Assembly (NCBI GenBank): GCA_964016885.1
Contig: OZ024759.1
Coordinates: 18,724,001 to 18,788,000 of the forward strand
Direction of reading: 5' to 3'
DNA: 64,000 nucleotides
Source: Eledone cirrhosa
Lineage: Eukaryota
The notes under the pieces were generated by a model. The model saw nothing but the letters and a program-made list of their open reading frames with translations, ran no database searches and had not been told where the DNA came from. The stretch's first letter is position 1; every line of letters begins with the position of its first letter. This document shows, piece by piece, positions 9,961-58,956 of the stretch. The translations under genes were made by a program, and so were the position numbers.

Positions 9961-10032
9961 TGACGTACATGGGAGTCGAACCCACATCTTTGGTTCTCTG
10001 GACCACTGTGCTACCATTTACACCAACACACC
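9961..10032 (-). tRNA. tRNA-like cloverleaf (pseudo-tRNA or SINE head; loop CCAGAGA, nominal anticodon AGA)
   Basis: ggtgtgt-tg-gtgt-aaatggta-gcac-a-gtggt-ccagaga-accaa-agat-gtggg-ttcgact-cccat-gtacgtc-a. All four arms pair, but there are many G:U pairs, C33 instead of U33 and a short variable loop, so it is unlikely to be a translating tRNA-Ser. Confidence 0.6.
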
Positions 10033-18232: not shown

Positions 18233-18234
<2 letters not shown>

Positions 18235-18426
18235 CGAAGGAACTGTGGTAAGGAACCAGATGGAACATAACGCACCAAAGTACTCAATACTTAGGGTAGT
18301 AGAGTGGGTAATAGGGACAAGTAAGACCCCGACGGCTGAGCTCAAGCCGTTTCGACGGCTAATTCTGTACAGAATTAGCCGTCGAAACGGCTTGAGCTCA
18401 GCCGTCGGGGTCTTACTTGTTCCTAT
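18233..18426. mobile_element. Half-hammerhead fold-back element, palindrome centred at 18368/18369
   Basis: ...gtttcgacggctaattctgt|acagaattagccgtcGAAAcggcttgagctcagccgTCggggtc; long arm on -, (TA)n on both sides. Confidence 0.8.
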
Positions 18427-18447
18427 ATATATATCTGTATATATCTG

Positions 18448-18481
<34 letters not shown>

Positions 18482-18615
18482 CATATATATATGAATATAG
18501 ACATAGAATATTCGAAAATATTCTGTATGTTTATAATAAACATTTTGAAGACCTAATCGCTATAGAATAGAATACGTCACGTATTACAATTAGATTCTCG
18601 ATAAAAGCAAGGGAA

Positions 18616-18658
18616 GTAATCTACGCGTTTCATTCTTGTTAGAATTCATCAGGACTAC
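18616..18658 (-). ncRNA. Type I hammerhead ribozyme, first of 6 minus-strand copies (18616+310n, n=0-5)
   Basis: Reverse complement of gtaatc-ta-cgcg-tttc-attcttgttagaat-tcatcag-gactac. Confidence 0.92.
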
Positions 18659-20575
18659 ATATCCAGTGCTTTTATCGAGAATGACACAGCTAGAGACTTA
18701 TAGAATACTTAGCTGTGTACAGGAACTGGTTTGAAAGAGCGGTTGCCGGTCCGGCAGAAATTAGAAATTGGAATAAATGCTCTGAAATAGCGATATATAT
18801 GTGAATATAGACATAGAATATTCGAAAATATTCTGTATGTTTATAATAAACATTTTGAAGACCTAATCGCTATAGAATAGAATACGTCACGTATTACAAT
18901 TAGATTCTCGATAAAAGCAAGGGAAGTAATCTACGCGTTTCATTCTTGTTAGAATTCATCAGGACTACATATCCAGTGCTTTTATCGAGAATGACACAGC
19001 TAGAGACTTATAGAATACTTAGCTGTGTACAGGAACTGGTTTGAAAGAGCGGTTGCCGGTCCGGCAGAAATTAGAAATTGGAATAAATGCTCTGAAATAG
19101 CGATATATATGTGAATATAGACATAGAATATTCGAAAATATTCTGTATGTTTATAATAAACATTTTGAAGACCTAATCGCTATAGAATAGAATACGTCAC
19201 GTATTACAATTAGATTCTCGATAAAAGCAAGGGAAGTAATCTACGCGTTTCATTCTTGTTAGAATTCATCAGGACTACATATCCAGTGCTTTTATCGAGA
19301 ATGACACAGCTAGAGACTTATAGAATACTTAGCTGTGTACAGGAACTGGTTTGAAAGAGCGGTTGCCGGTCCGGCAGAAATTAGAAATTGGAATAAATGC
19401 TCTGAAATAGCGATATATATGTGAATATAGACATAGAATATTCGAAAATATTCTGTATGTTTATAATAAACATTTTGAAGACCTAATCGCTATAGAATAG
19501 AATACGTCACGTATTACAATTAGATTCTCGATAAAAGCAAGGGAAGTAATCTACGCGTTTCATTCTTGTTAGAATTCATCAGGACTACATATCCAGTGCT
19601 TTTATCGAGAATGACACAGCTAGAGACTTATAGAATACTTAGCTGTGTACAGGAACTGGTTTGAAAGAGCGGTTGCCGGTCCGGCAGAAATTAGAAATTG
19701 GAATAAATGCTCTGAAATAGCGATATATATGTGAATATAGACATAGAATATTCGAAAATATTCTGTATGTTTATAATAAACATTTTGAAGACCTAATCGC
19801 TATAGAATAGAATACGTCACGTATTACAATTAGATTCTCGATAAAAGCAAGGGAAGTAATCTACGCGTTTCATTCTTGTTAGAATTCATCAGGACTACAT
19901 ATCCAGTGCTTTTATCGAGAATGACACAGCTAGAGACTTATAGAATACTTAGCTGTGTACAGGAACTGGTTTGAAAGAGCGGTTGCCGGTCCGGCAGAAA
20001 TTAGAAATTGGAATAAATGCTCTGAAATAGCGATATATATGTGAATATAGACATAGAATATTCGAAAATATTCTGTATGTTTATAATAAACATTTTGAAG
20101 ACCTAATCGCTATAGAATAGAATACGTCACGTATTACAATTAGATTCTCGATAAAAGCAAGGGAAGTAATCTACGCGTTTCATTCTTGTTAGAATTCATC
20201 AGGACTACATATCCAGTGCTTTTATCGAGAATGACACAGCTAGAGACTTATAGAATACTTAGCTGTGTACAGGAACTGGTTTGAAAGAGCGGTTGCCGGT
20301 CCGGCAGAAATTAGAAATTGGAATAAATGCTCTGAAATAGCGATATATATGTGAATATAGACATAGAATATTCGAAAATATTCTGTATGTTTATAATAAA
20401 CATTTTGAAGACCTAATCGCTATAGAATAGAATACGTCACGTATTACAATTAGATTCTCGATAAAAGCAACCGGCAACCGGCAACCGGCAACCGCTCTTT
20501 CAAACCAGTTCCTGTACACAGCTAAGTATTCTATAAGTCTCTAGCTGTGTCATTCTCGATAAAAGCACTGGATAT

Positions 20576-20618
20576 GTAGTCCTGATGAATTCTAACAAGA
20601 ATGAAACGCGTAGATTAC
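20576..20618 (+). ncRNA. Type I hammerhead ribozyme, first of 8 plus-strand copies (20576+310n, n=0-7); predicted cleavage after 20612
   Basis: Stem I gtagtc/gattac, core CTGATGA (20582), stem II attct-aaca-agaat, GAAA (20603), palindromic stem III acgcgt, GUA triplet; distal stem I attctcgataaaagca/tgcttttatcgagaat (20552-20640). Confidence 0.93.
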
Positions 20619-22947
20619 TTCCCTTGCTTTTATCGAGAATCTAATTGTAATACGTGACGTATTCTATTCTATAGCGATTAGGTCTTCAAAATGTTTATTA
20701 TAAACATACAGAATATTTTCGAATATTCTATGTCTATATTCACATATATATCGCTATTTCAGAGCATTTATTCCAATTTCTAATTTCTGCCGGACCGGCA
20801 ACCGCTCTTTCAAACCAGTTCCTGTACACAGCTAAGTATTCTATAAGTCTCTAGCTGTGTCATTCTCGATAAAAGCACTGGATATGTAGTCCTGATGAAT
20901 TCTAACAAGAATGAAACGCGTAGATTACTTCCCTTGCTTTTATCGAGAATCTAATTGTAATACGTGACGTATTCTATTCTATAGCGATTAGGTCTTCAAA
21001 ATGTTTATTATAAACATACAGAATATTTTCGAATATTCTATGTCTATATTCACATATATATCGCTATTTCAGAGCATTTATTCCAATTTCTAATTTCTGC
21101 CGGACCGGCAACCGCTCTTTCAAACCAGTTCCTGTACACAGCTAAGTATTCTATAAGTCTCTAGCTGTGTCATTCTCGATAAAAGCACTGGATATGTAGT
21201 CCTGATGAATTCTAACAAGAATGAAACGCGTAGATTACTTCCCTTGCTTTTATCGAGAATCTAATTGTAATACGTGACGTATTCTATTCTATAGCGATTA
21301 GGTCTTCAAAATGTTTATTATAAACATACAGAATATTTTCGAATATTCTATGTCTATATTCACATATATATCGCTATTTCAGAGCATTTATTCCAATTTC
21401 TAATTTCTGCCGGACCGGCAACCGCTCTTTCAAACCAGTTCCTGTACACAGCTAAGTATTCTATAAGTCTCTAGCTGTGTCATTCTCGATAAAAGCACTG
21501 GATATGTAGTCCTGATGAATTCTAACAAGAATGAAACGCGTAGATTACTTCCCTTGCTTTTATCGAGAATCTAATTGTAATACGTGACGTATTCTATTCT
21601 ATAGCGATTAGGTCTTCAAAATGTTTATTATAAACATACAGAATATTTTCGAATATTCTATGTCTATATTCACATATATATCGCTATTTCAGAGCATTTA
21701 TTCCAATTTCTAATTTCTGCCGGACCGGCAACCGCTCTTTCAAACCAGTTCCTGTACACAGCTAAGTATTCTATAAGTCTCTAGCTGTGTCATTCTCGAT
21801 AAAAGCACTGGATATGTAGTCCTGATGAATTCTAACAAGAATGAAACGCGTAGATTACTTCCCTTGCTTTTATCGAGAATCTAATTGTAATACGTGACGT
21901 ATTCTATTCTATAGCGATTAGGTCTTCAAAATGTTTATTATAAACATACAGAATATTTTCGAATATTCTATGTCTATATTCACATATATATCGCTATTTC
22001 AGAGCATTTATTCCAATTTCTAATTTCTGCCGGACCGGCAACCGCTCTTTCAAACCAGTTCCTGTACACAGCTAAGTATTCTATAAGTCTCTAGCTGTGT
22101 CATTCTCGATAAAAGCACTGGATATGTAGTCCTGATGAATTCTAACAAGAATGAAACGCGTAGATTACTTCCCTTGCTTTTATCGAGAATCTAATTGTAA
22201 TACGTGACGTATTCTATTCTATAGCGATTAGGTCTTCAAAATGTTTATTATAAACATACAGAATATTTTCGAATATTCTATGTCTATATTCACATATATA
22301 TCGCTATTTCAGAGCATTTATTCCAATTTCTAATTTCTGCCGGACCGGCAACCGCTCTTTCAAACCAGTTCCTGTACACAGCTAAGTATTCTATAAGTCT
22401 CTAGCTGTGTCATTCTCGATAAAAGCACTGGATATGTAGTCCTGATGAATTCTAACAAGAATGAAACGCGTAGATTACTTCCCTTGCTTTTATCGAGAAT
22501 CTAATTGTAATACGTGACGTATTCTATTCTATAGCGATTAGGTCTTCAAAATGTTTATTATAAACATACAGAATATTTTCGAATATTCTATGTCTATATT
22601 CACATATATATCGCTATTTCAGAGCATTTATTCCAATTTCTAATTTCTGCCGGACCGGCAACCGCTCTTTCAAACCAGTTCCTGTACACAGCTAAGTATT
22701 CTATAAGTCTCTAGCTGTGTCATTCTCGATAAAAGCACTGGATATGTAGTCCTGATGAATTCTAACAAGAATGAAACGCGTAGATTACTTCCCTTGCTTT
22801 TATCGAGAATCTAATTGTAATACGTGACGTATTCTATTCTATAGCGATTAGGTTTTCAAAATGTTTATTATAAACATACAGAATATTTTCGAATATTCTA
22901 TGTCTATATTCACATATATATCGCTATTTCAGAGCATTTATTCCAAT

Positions 22948-22949
<2 letters not shown>

Positions 22950-23015
<66 letters not shown>

Positions 23016-23042
23016 TATATTTACATGTATATATATATATAT

Positions 23043-23081
<39 letters not shown>

Positions 23082-23097
23082 TATATACAGATATATT

Positions 23098-23147
<50 letters not shown>

Positions 23148-23185
23148 ATATGCATGTGTGCCTATATATATATGTACACATACAT
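22950..23185. repeat. (TA)n tract with CAG/CATG interruptions
   Basis: Direct reading. Confidence 0.9.
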
Positions 23186-29163: not shown

Positions 29164-29751
29164 GTTTCTTTATTAGCCACAGGGGCACAAAAGAAGGGGA
29201 CAAATACAAAGGGCGAAGTTTACATACAATAAAAACGTGTTAAATGTTATAAAAAATGCAATTTAAAAAGTTAGTCGATTTTCCCCAATATGGGGAGACA
29301 TTTCATATGGGTAACACATACTCCCGAAAAAATGTGCAACCCTCATCTCCAGGAGTACGAAGAGTTTGTACTCCTTTCCTCTCCTCCTCCTTTTCCTCAA
29401 CCTACAGGCTGATATAGAGAGAAGGCCCATTCACTCGGGCCATTCTCGCCACTTTCACCCACCTTTCATAAACTTGCTGGGGTACAGCACCTCTCTCGCC
29501 ATCCTGATTCTTCTTCCAAAGTGGTATTTGAAAAAAAGAATCAGTTGTTGGCCGGAGAGAAAGGTGTCCGACCTCAACCCTTTCAACCTTGTCCACCATA
29601 CAACCTCTTTCGCCATAGCTATCACACAAAGGAAAACCGCCTCTCCTTCGTTTTTGAAGGAGGGTGGCGGTTTGATCATGACAATGGACTCGGTGGTCAA
29701 CCGGATTGGTCCCACCCGCGACAATAGTCGTTCTACATAGCCCCACAGGTC
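29164..29751 (-). mobile_element. 5'-truncated Tx1-like LINE within (GATA)n
   Basis: ESIVMIKPPPSFKNEGEAVFLCVIAMAKEVVWWTRLKG... (AKxxIWxxR-type ORF2 C-terminus), frameshifted; AATAAAGAAAC end; GATA repeats on both sides. Confidence 0.8.
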
Positions 29752-29788
29752 AGATAGATAGATAGATATAGATAGATAGATAGATATG

Positions 29789-29834
<46 letters not shown>

Positions 29835-34850: not shown

Positions 34851-36264
34851 GAAGTAAAGCGGTTAAACCAGTGTTCTAAATAGCTTGCCAAGAAGAGATA
34901 TTATCTCTACGTTCTCCCACCGAGATCAACTTTATCTTTGATCATTTTAAAGTTGATAAATAAAATAATTGCCTTTCATCGTTTTGAGGTCGATAAAACA
35001 ATACCAGTCAAGTAATAGGTTCGATTCTTCCTCACTTCCATTCTCTCACTCTCTATCCTATCCTTCTCTGAAAGAAGTCTGCTGTATTCAGACTTGGAGA
35101 AGAAATGTGTTTCGCCAGGTCTTAAAATGCCCTAGTAACCCCGTATGTCATTACGCTGTCCTTACGACTCCCTTGGGAGTTACGGGGAAATGCATGCATA
35201 CAAATAAAATACAGCGATAGGATCGAGTCTCTCGATCTCACAGGCGATCTTTCCCAGATCTGAGAAAGATCACCTGTGTTCAGATCTGGAGAGAGATGAC
35301 ATCTTCTGGATTTAAATACAGACCTGTCGACTCCCGCCGTCCAATGGGGAGATCTCCCACCTACTTTGGGGAGGGTGAGAGATGTTTTTTCTGGTGAAAA
35401 TTGGAATAGCTTTCATGTAGCTTGCATTTTACCACATTTATCCCCGTTTTAGGGTACATTTTTCATTGTACTCCCCGTTTGGGTTTTTATAGGTTGGCAG
35501 GTCTGTAAATATCCAAGACGTGCCGTATATCACGATGGCTCCTGTACAACTAGATCAGGAGTGTAGAGTTCACGGCATGGCATATTGATGAAGGATGTAT
35601 GTATAAAACGCGGAGAAAATTGATAAACCTGTAGTTTTTTTAATCTAGACGTTTGCAATATTTTTTAGCTACTGTGTAGCAGATATTCATTTCTAACTTT
35701 CCCAATTATTTTTACAGTGAAGCAGCGATTGGAAATATATAACCAACAACATTACTGTGTGCAAGTTGCAATATATTATAATTGAATTAATTAAATCGAT
35801 TTAAGATTGGTTTTTAATGAAAAATAACCATTAGAACAACTTGATTGAGCTAAAAGTGACCGCGAGGGGAAAAGAAAGACAGATAATTAGAATTATATAT
35901 CTTTAAAAACATCATCAATTTCAGTCGCAATAATTCACAGAAAATTTAGAATAAATACTGTTTTATATTGTTTTTATTTTATGTTGTGTATTCAAAATAC
36001 AGTATCGAAGAAATAGATTCGAAAATATGGTAATTTTATTATTATTCCACTAAGTCTCGGAGACGAGTGTAACAGTAATTTTCTTTTTGCTTTTAATTTT
36101 AATGATAGTTAGTTAATAGGTTGGTTAGTATTTTGAAAGTGAATTTGATATTTAATAGAAAAGGAAAATAAAACTGAAAAGAATGGGAATGGCAAGGTCT
36201 CTAGTGTCACAGAAGAGGAGGGTGAGGATGATTGGGTTCCTGGCCAAGGCCCGGCGATGAAGGG

Positions 36265-36900
36265 GCTGCGGCCCGCGGACAATGGCCAGCGACACTCGCC
36301 GCAACAGCCATCCTACCTCGCGAGTTCCATCCTCAGACGGGTCGCCGACGTTCCGATCTTGTGGAGGAGTTCGAATGTACGGGGTGCGCCTGAGGTCTTA
36401 ACGGGGTCCGGTGCGAAGAGAAAGCGGTCAAACAATCCCCGGTATTTGTTTATTTTCCTTTCCTCTGCGAGGCGGGTGGCGGTACCCGGGTTTGTAGCCG
36501 AAGCGACTAAGTCGGAGGCAGACAACGCGTCACAACATGTGGCGTCCCAGATGAAGGATCTACCTCCTTCGATTGGAAAGAGGATGATTCCATAGGAACG
36601 CTTACCGTCTCCGCAGTCAAGGCCTGCTGACTCCAGTTGTGATGGAAAGCCAGCCGCGTCCAGGCTCCTTCTCAGTATGTCGTTGGGGGCAGAATGTCAG
36701 GGGACCTGACTTGCTCTCTGGCAGCAAGACAGTGAATGCAGGCCGAACTTGACAACGATCGCCTTACAACAGCATTTATGTGGCTCACACACACGGAGGC
36801 CAAGGCGTTGGGTTACTCCGATGCGATCGCATTCGTCATCAAGAAAGGTACCGGTTAATGAGTAAGGCGCCGAATTGAGTCATGCGCCGCTGTTGGGCTG
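36265..36900 (-). pseudogene. CRE-clade non-LTR retrotransposon C-terminal zinc knuckle plus restriction-like endonuclease remnant
   Basis: Reads RLGLRVCEPHKCCC..GLHSLSC..NDILRRSL..DGKRSYG..FIWDATCCD..AEERKINKY..RVSLAIVRG with stops. Confidence 0.8.
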
Positions 36901-45195: not shown

Positions 45196-45520
45196 CTAGT
45201 ATACACACATATATATCTATTGCGTGTCCTTTTACATCACGGATCACAGGCCTCGCACACCCGGACTGAACAAAGTCTGAGTTACCGTCTTGGGTCCTGT
45301 TTCCCTCATGGATTCAACTTCCCTCCACAATTTCTGTAATACACCGTCCGTTATTGCACACGCGCTTATACATTCACCACTAGATTCCTTTGGCTCTCAT
45401 GCGGTCAGAAACATATACTCTTACAGCTGATACAGACCAACAAAATACGCACAATCTACTTTTCCCTTCACAGCTTCGTACTTACTTTTGCTCACAGCTT
45501 CGTACTTACAAGCACACACA

Positions 45521-46006
45521 CACTCTTTTACTTACATATACACACATATATCCCCTTGGCTTCGTACGGACGTACACTCTTTTACTTACATATACACACA
45601 TATATCCCCTTGGCTTCGTACGGACGTACACTCTTTTACTTACATATACACACATATATCCCCTTGGCTTCGTACAGACGTACACTCTTTTACTTACATA
45701 TACACACATATATCCCCTTGGCTTCGTACAGACGTACACTCTTTTACTTACATATACACACATATATCCCCTTGGCTTCGTACGGACGTACACTCTTTTA
45801 CTTACATATACACACATATATCCCCTTGGCTTCGTACGGACGTACACTCTTTTACTTACATATACACACATATATCCCCTTGGCTTCGTACGGACGTACA
45901 CTCTTTTACTTACATATACACACATATATCCCCTTGGCTTCGTACAGACGTACACTCTTTTACTTACATATACACACATATATCCCCTTGGCTTCGTACG
46001 GACGTA
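45521..46006. repeat. 54-bp minisatellite, 9 copies
   Basis: cactcttttacttacatatacacacatatatccccttggcttcgtac(g/a)gacgta. Confidence 0.95.
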
Positions 46007-49013: not shown

Positions 49014-49737
49014 TATTATTACACTATGTTATATATATATATGTGTGTGTGTGTGGGTGTGTGTGTGTATATATATATTTATATATGTGTGTGTGTGCGA
49101 GAGTAAAAGTGAGGAAGGAGAAAGAAAGAGATGCACAGAAATGCAGAAAAAGGGAGTTTGCATGTTGGAAAGTATGGACGCTAATTTTGTTTCGAATAAA
49201 ATTACTCTAATCATAAAGAGTGACAATCTAATTTTTGTAATACACATTCTCGAATCTAATCATTAAACAGGAAATCAATACTTGAAACATGAGAAATTTC
49301 CATAATGTTGAAAGAATTTTCTTTTATTTTGCTAACTTTGTTTGTTTTCAATTTTTGGTAAACAATAGAATAGTTGCGGATTTTTAAAGAAAACCTGATT
49401 AAAACAAAGACTGAGGTATTCTATATTATAATGCAATGCTAAAGAATGTAAACGTTGCAGAATTCATCGAAATTTCCAAAAAAAAAAAAAAATGGTAATA
49501 AATAATAAAGGAAAAAAAACAAAATGAAATAAAATAAATACATTTTTAAAATCTATCAAACTTGATAAATGTTTTCCACAGAAGGCGAGATCCGTGAAAG
49601 GAATTCATAATAACTCAAACAACGTATTCCCCTGGAGTGATACTAAAGGATGGAGTAGGGAGAATACGTAGATATTAATAATATTAGTAGGCTTTTTAAT
49701 AAGTTAATTATAGAGTGTGGGATGTACGTATCAGCGG

Positions 49738-50493
49738 AAAGGATCTCCATCGCTTACGACGATGCATGCTTGTCAAGTGTCTTGATCAACAGATCACCTT
49801 GACCAAGATATTAATATGCAGAATAACTTAATTTGTAGAATGTAGGATATACGTATGAAAAGAAAGGATCTCCATCGCTTACGACGATGCATGCTTGTCA
49901 AGTGTCTTGATCAACAGATCACTTTGACCAAGATATTAATATGCAGAATAACTTAATTTGTAGAATGTAGGATATACGTATGAAAAGAAAGGATCTCCAT
50001 CGCTTACGACGATGCATGCTTGTCAAGTGTCTTGATCAACAGATCACCTTGACCAAGATATTAATATGCAGAATAACTTAATTTGTAGAATGTAGGAAAT
50101 ACGTATGAAAAGAAAGGATCTCCATCGCTTACGACGATGCATGCTTGTCAAGTGTCTTGATCAACAGATCACTTTGACCAAGATATTAATATGCAGAATA
50201 ACTTAATTTGTAGAATGTAGGATATACGTATGAAAAGAAAGGATCTCCATCGCTTACGACGATGCATGCTTGTCAAGTGTCTTGATCAACAGATCACCTT
50301 GACCAAGATATTAATATGCAGAATAACTTAATTTGTAGAATGTAGGAAATACGTATGAAAAGAAAGGATCTCCATCGCTTACGACGATGCATGCTTGTCA
50401 AGTGTCTTGATCAACAGATCACCTTGACCAAGATATTAATATGCAGAATAACTTAATTTGTAGAATGTTGGAAATACGTATGAAAAGAAAGGA
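49738..50493. repeat. 125-bp tandem repeat, 6 copies plus diverged flanking partial units
   Basis: ggatctccat at 49741, 49866, 49991, 50116, 50241, 50366. Confidence 0.95.
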
Positions 50494-51737: not shown

Positions 51738-51765
51738 TAAATACCATACTTATTTTTTGATACCC

Positions 51766-51816
51766 AGATTCCTGATGATTTCTAAAGAATGAAACAGTTC
51801 TAGTCCTGTAGAATCT
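51766..51816 (+). ncRNA. Solitary Type I hammerhead ribozyme
   Basis: agattc-CTGATGA-tttctaaagaat-GAAA-cag-ttctagtc-ctg-TA^gaatct. Confidence 0.75.
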
Positions 51817-51828
51817 CATCTATATTAA

Positions 51829-51881
<53 letters not shown>

Positions 51882-52310: not shown

Positions 52311-52326
52311 ATATATATATATATAA

Positions 52327-52454
52327 AACGAAGGAATTGTGGTAAGGAACCAGATGGACCATAACGCACCAAAGTACTCAATGCTTAGTGTAGTAGAGTG
52401 GGTAATAGGAACCAGTATGACCCCGACGGCAGAGCTCAAGCCGTTTCGACGGCT
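52327..52454 (-). mobile_element. Half-hammerhead family element
   Basis: Homologous to the long arm of 18233. Confidence 0.75.
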
Positions 52455-52455
52455 A

Positions 52456-54758: not shown

Positions 54759-54934
54759 TACATTCATATATTTATAGTTAATACGAAGCATTGTGAGATA
54801 TGTAATAAAAGACCGATAAATTTATAGAGATATACATACACATATATGTACATGTATACGTATTTCACACACATATATATATATATTTATATATATATAT
54901 ATATATATGTGTGTGTGAATATATATATATATAC

Positions 54935-55094
54935 GAAAAGGTATGACCCCGACGGCAGAGCTCAAGCAGTTTCGAAACGGCTTGAGCTCTGCCATCAGGG
55001 TCATACCTTTTCCTATTTCCCACTCTACTACCCTAAGTATTGAGTACTCTGGTGTGTTATGGTCCATCTGATTCCTTACCACAATTCCTTTGTT
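54935..55094. mobile_element. Half-hammerhead fold-back element inverted exactly at tttcGAAA
   Basis: gagctcaagcagtttc|gaaacggcttgagctc. Confidence 0.75.
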
Positions 55095-55114
55095 ATATAT
55101 ATATATATATCTAT

Positions 55115-55452
55115 GTGTGTGAATGAAGTAATTCCGTCGGAAAAGTCCAGGAAAAAAGAGTGCTCTATGTAGGCAACAGAGCTTAATAGTTATGTAATAA
55201 ACAACATAAGGCAATTATTCCATTTACCAGTGGTTTCTTAAAAGCAAAAAATGTTGCTTTCAATCATCAGAATGAAAAAATCCTGGTCTGTTTATTGAAT
55301 TTGGATTTTAAAAATAAATTTGTTTTTAAAATCCAAATTCAATAAACAGACCAGGATTTTTTTCATTCTGATGATTGAAAGCAAAGTTTTTTGCTTTTAA
55401 GAAACCACTGGTAAATGGAATAATTGCCTTATGTTGTTTATTACATAACTAT
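55115..55452. mobile_element. Inverted dimer with hammerheads at 55218-55277 (-) and 55361-55420 (+)
   Basis: tttcatt-CTGATGA-ttgaaagcaaa-gttt-tttgcttttaa-GAAA-ccactgg-TA^aatggaa; palindrome 55186-55452. Confidence 0.85.
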
Positions 55453-55529
55453 ATATATATATAAATATACATATATTCACATATATATATATTTATATAT
55501 ACACACACACATATATGTACATATACATA

Positions 55530-55568
<39 letters not shown>

Positions 55569-55580
55569 ATATATATATAT

Positions 55581-56137
55581 ACCGAGTCTATTGTAATGAT
55601 CAAGCCGCCTCCCCCCTTCAAAGATGAAGCAGAGGCGGTGTTTCTGTGCGTAATAGCCATGGCGAAAGAGGTTGTATGGTGGACGCGTCTGAAAGGACTG
55701 AGGTCAGGCACCTTTCTCTCTGGCCAACAACTGGTCCGTTTCTTCCGATATCATTTCGGAAGAAGGATCAGGATGGAGAGAGAGGTGCTCCACCCCAGTC
55801 GTTTTTATGAAAGGTGGGTGAAAGTGGCGAGAATGGCCCGTGTGAATGGGCCTTCTCTTTACATAAGCCTGTAGGTGGAAAAGAGGAAGGAACGAGGGAG
55901 CACCCCCTCTCTGTGCTCCTGAGGAAAAGGGTTGCACACTTTTTTCGGGGGTGTGTGCGACCCCGCAAGGCGCCTCCTCTCTATTGAGGATTTTGTTATA
56001 AATTTTATTTTTTGTTATATTTTATTTTATTTTTATATTTTGTTATTGCCTCCTCCTTATTGAGGACGCCTTTTTGTGTAAACTCCCCCCTTTGTACTTG
56101 TCCCACTTTTGATGCCCTGGTGGCAAATAAAAGAAAC
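55581..56137 (+). mobile_element. 5'-truncated Tx1-like LINE next to (TATC)n/(TA)n
   Basis: Open ORF2 C-terminus ESIVMIKPPPPF..AKEVVWWTR..ARVNGPSLYISL* (stop at 55874), 3' UTR, AATAAA at 56126. Confidence 0.82.
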
Positions 56138-58048: not shown

Positions 58049-58956
58049 GGTGGATTGGCAGTATTGGTAGAGTGACGGATGCCATGCTTTGGCGCATAGT
58101 GTTACGGCCCTTGCCATTCTGAGTTCAAATCCCGCCGAGGTTAACTTTGCCTTTCATCCTTACGGGGTCGATAAAATAAAGTACCAGTAATACACTGGGT
58201 ATTTGCTGGCCTTGTGCCTAACGTAGAAACAATTATTATTATTATTATTATTATTATTTATCCTCTGTCGTCTGGTATTTTGTCTTTTATTCAAAGCGAG
58301 GTCGATAAAATAAAGTACCAGTAATACACTGGGTAATTGCTGGCCTTGTGCCTAACGTAGAAACAATTATTATTATTATTATTATTATTTATCCTCTGTC
58401 GTCTGGTATTTTGTCTTTTATTCAAAGCGGGGTCGATAAAATAAAGTACCAGTAATACACTGGGTATTTGCTGGCCTTGTGCCTAACGTAGAAACAATTA
58501 TTAATTTTTAATATTATTATTTATCCTCTGTCGTCTGGTATTTTGTCTTTTATTCAAAGCGGGGTCGATAAAATAAAGTACCAGTAATACACTGGGTAAT
58601 TGCTGGCCTTGTGCCTAACGTAGAAACAATTATTAATTTTTAATATTATTATTTATCCTCTGTCGTCTGGTATTTTGTCTTTTATTCAAAGCGGGGTCGA
58701 TAAAATAAAGTACCAGTAATACACTGGGTAATTGCTGGCCTTGTGCCTAACGTAGAAACAATTATTAATTTTTAATATTATTATTTATCCTCTGTCGTCT
58801 GGTATTTTGTCTTTTATTCAAAGCGGGGTCGATAAAATAAAGTACCAGTAATACACTGGGTAATTGCTGGCCTTGTGCCTAACGTAGAAACAATTATTAA
58901 TTTTTAATATTATTATTTATCCTCTGTCGTCTGGTATTTTGTCTTTTATTCAAAGC
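58049..58956 (+). repeat. Family A SINE whose 3' half plus ~40 bp of flank is tandemly amplified 6 times (~132-bp unit)
   Basis: ggggtcgataaaataaagtacc at 58164, 58298, 58429, 58561, 58693, 58825. Confidence 0.92.

What the first reader, a model, noticed from the sequence alone, without database searches (positions are those of the whole stretch)
18483..22948. Retrozyme-like array: 14 identical Type I hammerhead ribozymes in a 310-bp tandem repeat that flips orientation mid-array
Seen: every complete unit has a full hammerhead core (stem I gtagtc/gattac, CTGATGA, stem II attct/agaat, GAAA, GUA site), an internal loop and a perfect 16-bp distal stem I. Stem III is only the palindrome acgcgt. 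The rest of the unit is hairpin-rich (acacagcta/tagctgtgt, tgccgg/ccggca, aatacgt/acgtatt, atgttta/taaacat, atagcgat/atcgctat) and has no meaningful ORF. Copies are essentially identical, so the insertion is probably very young. Established: metazoan non-LTR retrozymes are tandem repeats of a few hundred bp with Type I HHRs that yield circular RNAs, and palindromic short stem III favours dimeric cleavage. Inference: a recently active circular-RNA retroelement. Because of the inversion, read-through in either direction meets sense ribozymes (7 monomers from +, 5 from -). The class is known, but I cannot place this family and the bidirectional arrangement looks unusual.
Basis: partly seen in the sequence, partly recalled or inferred. 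Interest (0 to 1): 0.92.

Follow-up and report, generated by a model that had tools for sequence, protein, structure and literature searches.

The report
Two-armed hammerhead retrozyme insertion
This back-to-back array is one of more than a thousand near-identical insertions of a 310-base non-coding repeat with a predicted self-cutting RNA fold; its fixed ends and shared mutations suggest that a Penelope-type jumping-gene enzyme likely copied one small RNA circle round and round from both cut DNA strands, which would make a long-proposed copying step testable.

Summary
The array is real: 14 hammerhead cores (6 minus, 8 plus), 310-bp units, one substitution. The flip is not an oddity of this locus. 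It is the family rule: 92 of 99 loci are two arms joined back to back. Outer ends are fixed 35 bases apart in the unit and lie in (TA)n, while the inner junction falls anywhere, with microhomology. That is the published anatomy of Penelope-like element (PLE) insertions (inverted 5' copy, 30-40-bp tail), and young intact PLEs are in the genome. Both arms of an insertion carry the same haplotype, including rare changes fixed in every unit, which points to one monomer template read repeatedly (inferred: a circle). Inherited changes keep base pairs and are rich in A>G, possibly RNA editing written into DNA. Against: the longest arms also grew by DNA duplication, no helper shares sequence with the unit, and cleavage and circular RNA are untested. 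Known class (non-LTR retrozyme); the two-armed layout is absent from the retrozyme papers read. This scan reached the same reading for this family on other pieces of this genome.

The parts
18492..20470 (-). Short-end arm: 6.4 units of 310 bp, six hammerhead cores; outer end at unit position 130, inner break at position 12 (unit numbered from the predicted cut)
20471..20483 (.). Junction insert, extra copies of the 7-mer GCAACCG from the start of the plus arm
20484..22948 (+). Tail-end arm: 8.0 units, eight hammerhead cores; inner break at unit position 182, outer end at 166
20552..20640 (+). First plus-strand type I hammerhead: 16-bp distal stem I, internal loops, 6-bp proximal stem I, core 20582-20606, palindromic stem III ACGCGT, predicted cut after 20612
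20613..20922 (+). One predicted monomer (cut site to cut site), the inferred circular RNA
   Evidence: inference
22913..22948 (+). Tail: the 35-36 bases present at this end only; begins with the CATATATAT tract that can pair with a (TA)n primer
18424..18491 (.). Left part of the (TA)n target
22949..23151 (.). Right part of the (TA)n target

Best explanation
This is one young insertion of a non-coding 310-base hammerhead repeat (a non-LTR retrozyme) whose two back-to-back arms were likely made in a single event by a borrowed Penelope-type enzyme, probably copying one circular RNA monomer many times. Steps: (1) inferred: arrays are transcribed, neighbouring hammerheads pair through ACGCGU, cut out monomers, and a host ligase closes them; (2) inferred: a PLE endonuclease cuts both strands of a (TA)n tract; (3) shown as fixed ends, inferred as priming: one DNA end starts reverse transcription at unit position 165-167, the other at 130, beside an internal UAUAUAU tract; (4) inferred: each copy runs round the template for a median of 3.4 units and stops at random; (5) shown as microhomology: the two far ends are joined, which gives the inversion; (6) shown in the longest arms: later DNA duplication can lengthen an arm. 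New insertions serve in turn as sources.
For: Copy number: 2528 exact matches of one 43-base hammerhead variant; 1197 tail-end/(TA)n junctions. Inversion in 55 of 60 plus 37 of 39 tail-anchored loci. Ends fixed at 130 and 165-167. Of 99 junctions, 69 have no insert and 42 of these share 2 or more bases against 18% by chance (28 of 41, p 2e-12; 14 of 28). Inner breaks are spread evenly, 5 of 198 within 5 bases of the cut site against 6.4 expected, and 195 of 209 arms are longer than 170 bases, so the template was not a cut linear monomer. 110 insertions hold 40 haplotypes (chance of a match about 10%); in the first set the two arms agreed in 55 of 62, and of the 7 flagged 2 were gap-placement artefacts, 4 rested on one unit and 1 (L064) was real; the 37 of the second set agree by eye. 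The pair 119G+131T occurs in exactly two insertions genome-wide, in all units of both arms; L238 has three such changes in both arms. All three arrays with 158G, a change inside the tail, end at 167 rather than 165 (14 of 106 ends do so otherwise). Inherited changes keep pairs 12 of 19 times, single-unit changes 18 of 73 (p 0.002); none of the inherited ones hits the 12 core bases. A sister family is collinear at 67% with four compensatory pairs in 13 bp of distal stem I (majority of only 3 units). Young intact helpers exist: RT plus C-terminal GIY-YIG with the CX4CxxC linker; the L131 family matches at 98-100% in 86 of 86 scored places and ends before an internal ATATATA tract; L133 has the same short end, tail end and inversion. 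PAc protein cuts and extends both strands and starts at two internal sites that bound the tail (PMC11167929).
Against: L075 has a 45-unit arm with an exact 27-unit block duplication, so DNA-level growth is real and young arrays would hide it. About 10 of 110 insertions have variants in some but not all units; L064 and L087 switch haplotype inside an arm. A rare haplotype could come from a source locus missing from this assembly. None of 50 GIY-YIG loci carried a pLTR similar to the unit (the one clear match, in L102, is a sister retrozyme in a neighbouring TA tract), and all 16 other continuations of the exact tail were insertion ends, so the helper is not identified. Stem II closes A-U or U.U, which may weaken cleavage; 8 of 9 Xenopus dimers did not cut in vitro. 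For PAc, ribozyme cleavage was not needed for insertion and uncut RNA was the main substrate. Loci were chosen by the tail end and 93 of 99 lie on one contig.
Confidence: 0.7

Rival explanations
1. Same PLE-made insertion, but the template is an uncut linear multimer from a source array (or two sister RNAs from one locus), and long arms and their uniformity come from later unequal crossing-over and conversion. The hammerhead would be a passenger at this step.
For: 27-unit block duplication in L075 and shared variants in L051 and L055; uncut RNA is the main PAc substrate; Li et al. favour local amplification of PLE ends; multimers exist in axolotl RNA.
Against: A change arising in one unit of a multimer should not end up in every unit of both arms, yet 30 of 40 haplotypes were seen once and 119G+131T fills both arms of two insertions; about 100 of 110 insertions show no partly shared variant; pairing and core are conserved among inherited changes.
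Confidence: 0.23
2. An ordinary satellite array that was inverted after it formed, by fold-back repair or recombination.
For: The unit is rich in hairpins; one junction (L031) sits on the 16-bp stem.
Against: Both outer ends are fixed at two sites and junctions are not symmetric (4 of 62 within 10 bases, 4.2 expected); 92 of 99 loci are inverted exactly once near their middle or show simple repeats of the pattern.
Confidence: 0.04
3. Fold-back or collapsed assembly artefact.
For: Near-perfect identity; no long reads were checked.
Against: Different flanks, different junctions and haplotypes at each locus, asymmetric breaks (12 and 182 here), apparent target duplications in L034 (about 12 bp) and L071 (about 24 bp) read by eye. 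Unit number at this locus could still be off.
Confidence: 0.03

Closest known systems
Metazoan non-LTR retrozymes (coral, mussel, axolotl Rtz331/Rtz353; Cervera and de la Pena 2020, PMC7229834; Li et al. 2026, 10.64898/2026.07.22.740005)
   Same: Tandem 150-450-bp low-GC units, one type I hammerhead each, no ORF, thousands of dispersed copies; one-pair helix III with palindromic tetraloop as in HHR_Amex1 and U.U at the base of helix II as in HHR_Amex2; PLE helper and circular template proposed.
   Different: Neither main text describes inverted arms, a tail or fixed ends ('inverted' 0 times and once in a reference title). Li et al. found pLTR similarity for 24 of 57 families; none was found here. 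Expression and cleavage are shown there, untested here.
Insertions of endonuclease-bearing Penelope-like elements (Penelope/Poseidon, Neptune, Naiad; Craig et al. 2021, PMC8557442; PAc, Frangieh et al. 2024, PMC11167929)
   Same: Inverted 5'-truncated copy, 30-40-bp tail at one end, (TA)n targets, two internal start sites.
   Different: No RT or endonuclease; arms of many whole units rather than partial tandems; the short end has partial homology to the target, whereas PAc starts without homology.
Non-autonomous Chlamys elements such as MRC1 (PMC8557442, passage)
   Same: Non-coding PLE dependants with multicopy head-to-tail insertions.
   Different: Those resemble their helpers at the 3' end and belong to a clade described as lacking canonical hammerheads.
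L1 twin priming (recalled, no call)
   Same: Two primers from the target give an inversion joined by microhomology.
   Different: In L1 the two pieces cover separate parts of a linear RNA; here both cover the same unit many times and breaks do not pile up at the second start site.

Membership tests
Non-LTR retrozyme | Tandem units of 150-450 bp, each with a type I hammerhead | tested here: met
   310 bp, 14 cores in 14.4 units
Non-LTR retrozyme | Low GC, no coding capacity | tested here: met
   34% GC; longest ATG frame 30 codons
Non-LTR retrozyme | Dispersed at many loci | tested here: met
   1197 tail junctions, 2528 exact cores of one variant
Non-LTR retrozyme | Target duplication longer than 4 bp when present | tested here: inconclusive
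   Seen by eye in 2 of 54 flank pairs printed (L034, L071); the rest lie in (TA)n
Non-LTR retrozyme | Self-cleavage as monomer or dimer | not testable with these tools
   Core and pairing conserved, but no assay
Non-LTR retrozyme | Expressed as a circular monomer | not testable with these tools
   No RNA run was offered
Rfam hammerhead families (CL00010) | Score at or above gathering threshold | tested here: not met
   HH9 23 bits against 52, E 0.0033
PLE-type insertion | Inverted 5'-truncated copy | tested here: met
   92 of 99 loci
PLE-type insertion | 30-40-bp tail at one end | tested here: met
   Ends at 130 and 165-167
PLE-type insertion | Microsatellite target bias | tested here: met
   Both flanks (TA)n in 53 of 54 printed; the tail side was selected for it in most, the short side was not
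Autonomous PLE | RT plus GIY-YIG reading frame | tested here: not met
   No ORF in the unit
Derivative of a resident PLE pLTR | Sequence similarity to a pLTR of a coding element | tested here: inconclusive
   None among 50 loci out of 10,597 candidates; only the last 20 or so tail bases resemble the L133 family end (by eye)

The most novel reading that the evidence does not exclude
The family records a full cycle in which single circular RNAs are A-to-I edited in their hammerhead stem and then written into the genome by two-ended rolling-circle reverse transcription, so each array is a DNA print of one edited RNA molecule. A>G makes up 12 of 36 inherited substitutions against 11 of 136 single-unit ones (p 0.0003); among pair-keeping changes in stems 10 are A>G and 1 is C>T where a share of 0.35 was expected (p 0.0002); all five minor variants found on more than one background (20, 158, 259, 260, 276) are A>G. 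Weak points: only 2 of 8 new variants in the second set were A>G, neighbours are not clearly ADAR-like, and template switching can move variants between backgrounds.
Probability: 0.35. Interest if true: 0.8.

Novelty: new variant of a known kind. Interest (0 to 1): 0.57.

Why it matters
How animal retrozymes get back into DNA is proposed (circle plus PLE enzyme) but not shown in the papers read, and how PLEs make tandem and inverted insertions is named there as an open question. This family is young (109 single-unit changes in 190,835 bases, 0.06%), has over a thousand insertions, two mapped start sites and candidate helpers with intact frames, so both questions can be tested with one small RNA and one protein. 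If the A>G excess is editing, it is a route by which RNA edits become heritable in a mobile element.

Tried and rejected
DNA search of the own genome with the unit found nothing because common words are skipped; patterns were used instead. Horizontal transfer: 20 runs under 18 organism labels hold 73-100% of the words. X2 behaves like the host genome (unit depth about 4e5, another host repeat about 3e6); X11 and X1 hold a closed 340-base contig together with low-depth pieces of that other host repeat; raw reads of X23, same organism label as X11, gave 0 in 1,938 million letters, about 1% of the run. Trace host DNA is the simpler reading; transfer is not supported and not excluded. The closed 340-base contigs are what an assembler makes of any tandem repeat and are no evidence of an RNA circle. 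No RNA holder was listed. Search for a helper with the exact tail: none. The first junction script mis-called ends near variants and was replaced; only its chance table is used. L090 (insertion also in L089) was left out of insertion counts and L197 (fetched on the wrong side) out of all counts. Paper searches that found no report of this family or layout: octopus + hammerhead ribozyme, retrozyme + inverted + tandem + rolling circle, Penelope + octopus + non-autonomous + inverted, retrozyme + ADAR, Penelope-like + twin priming, head-to-head + retrozyme. Lunse et al. 2017 was not held. Promoter elements were not examined.

Full report
Observation. The window holds two arms of a 310-bp repeat, 18492-20470 on the minus strand and 20484-22948 on the plus strand, in a (TA)n tract. 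There are 6 and 8 hammerhead cores; units differ at one base. The ribozyme region and the whole circle fold far better than shuffles. Rfam gives a sub-threshold hammerhead match only. I number the unit from the predicted cut (position 1 = window 20613).

The family. One exact 43-base variant of the hammerhead occurs 2528 times in the 3.0-Gb genome, and the first 100 places already showed a minus block followed by a plus block in array after array. The tail end joined to (TA)n occurs 1197 times. I fetched 60 loci from the first hits, then 39 more (33 from the same list, 6 from other contigs): 55 of 60 and 37 of 39 are inverted two-arm insertions. Eight of nine loci picked by the hammerhead were too. 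The sample was anchored on the tail end and lies mostly on one contig.

Ends and junctions. One arm ends at position 165-167 (91, 1 and 14 of 106 ends), the other at 130, just before the unit's own CATATATAT; about two thirds of these short ends have lost the C, as expected if a (TA)n primer pairs with that tract. The 35 bases between are present at one end only. Craig et al. (PMC8557442, passages) describe the inverted 5' copy, the 30-40-bp tail and (TA)n bias as PLE features; Frangieh et al. (PMC11167929, parts 1-2 of 4) show that a PLE protein cuts and extends both strands and starts at two internal sites that bound the tail. Inner junctions fall anywhere: 5 of 198 breaks lie near the cut site (6.4 expected), they are not symmetric, and 42 of 69 junctions without insert share 2 or more bases against 18% by chance; 30 of 99 have short or, once, long inserts. 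So the inversion is made at insertion.

Template. 110 insertions carry 40 haplotypes, 30 seen once. Both arms carry the same one, with L064 the clear exception and L087 a second once its other arm was fetched. Genome-wide, 119G+131T is found in two insertions only, in every unit of both arms; 158G fills three arrays on two backgrounds and occurs in two single units elsewhere. A new change can fill all units of both arms most simply if one monomer was read repeatedly. 195 of 209 arms exceed 170 bases, so they cross the cut site. Cervera and de la Pena proposed this route (PMC7229834, Discussion, section 15 and first third of Results read; PMC4209133, passages). Against it: L075 has a 45-unit arm with a 27-unit block duplicated exactly, so arms can also grow as DNA, and about 10 of 110 insertions have partly shared variants.

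Selection and editing. Inherited changes spare the core (0, against 13 of 180 single-unit changes) and keep pairs more often (12 of 19 against 18 of 73). A sister family of about 310 bp, older and with the same ends and inversion, is collinear at 67% with compensatory pairs. Inherited changes are rich in A>G on the ribozyme strand; this fits A-to-I editing of the template but is not shown. The host is likely a mollusc (closest named relatives of a resident PLE protein are from bivalves); that the repeat landscape looks like an octopus and that cephalopods edit heavily is recalled and untested.

Helper. The genome has at least five RT plus GIY-YIG families among 50 loci examined; four have the CX4CxxC linker that Craig et al. 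give for Neptune and Nematis. The L131 family is the youngest seen; the L133 family (top 44 matches 94-100%) has the same end layout. Neither resembles the unit beyond a few tail bases, so the partner is unknown.

Comparison and verdict. It works like a PLE insertion and meets the sequence-level features of a non-LTR retrozyme; cleavage and circular RNA could not be tested. The two-armed form is not in the main texts of PMC7229834, PMC7761336 (passages) or Li et al. 2026 (parts 1-3 of 5 and a term search); their supplements were not seen and could show it. It may be common in retrozymes and overlooked. The scan's own notes record the same family and reading on other pieces of this genome; I looked these up after forming my reading and they are not independent support. 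New variant of a known kind, interest 0.57.

Noticed in passing
window 18233-18425, also about 52320-52455 and 54900-55200: Short palindromic element (52-bp perfect inverted repeat centred at 18369) with one longer arm, in (TA)n right beside the array; 32 BLAST matches in 0.68 Mb of fetched loci. Looks like a very abundant truncated PLE-type insertion.
   Followed up: partly
window 51760-51835: Another hammerhead-like family (core CTGATGA..GAAAC) that shares a loop motif with the 310 unit and its sister; forms small palindromes in L140 and L148.
   Followed up: partly
window 43274-43240 (minus): Minimal PLE-type hammerhead core.
   Followed up: no
L102:2440-2870 and L151-L180, L240-L246: Older sister retrozyme family, 3279 first-look candidates, stem III ACAGACTGT, same tail and inversion.
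   Followed up: partly
L131 pLTR, L137 and L147 3' regions: Resident PLE ends carry a hammerhead-like motif with U3 and A8 in place of C3 and G8 (read by eye).
   Followed up: no
L055 junction: 272 bases of unrelated GC-richer sequence captured between the two arms.
   Followed up: no
L041: Insertion with a doubled inversion (minus, plus, minus, plus) whose two junctions are the same.
   Followed up: partly
unit positions 2-4 in several loci: The only inherited insertions (+C, +T) lie 2-4 bases from the predicted cut and ligation site.
   Followed up: no
window 9961-10032 (minus): tRNA-like sequence, Rfam 41.8 bits.
   Followed up: no
window 45520-46006, 49698-50493, 58163-58956: Young tandem arrays of 54, 125 and 132 bp; the last is made of a piece of the common SINE-like repeat.
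   Followed up: no
window 29315-29832, 36149-36696, 55449-55874: Open frames that look like decayed retrotransposon pieces (by eye).
   Followed up: no
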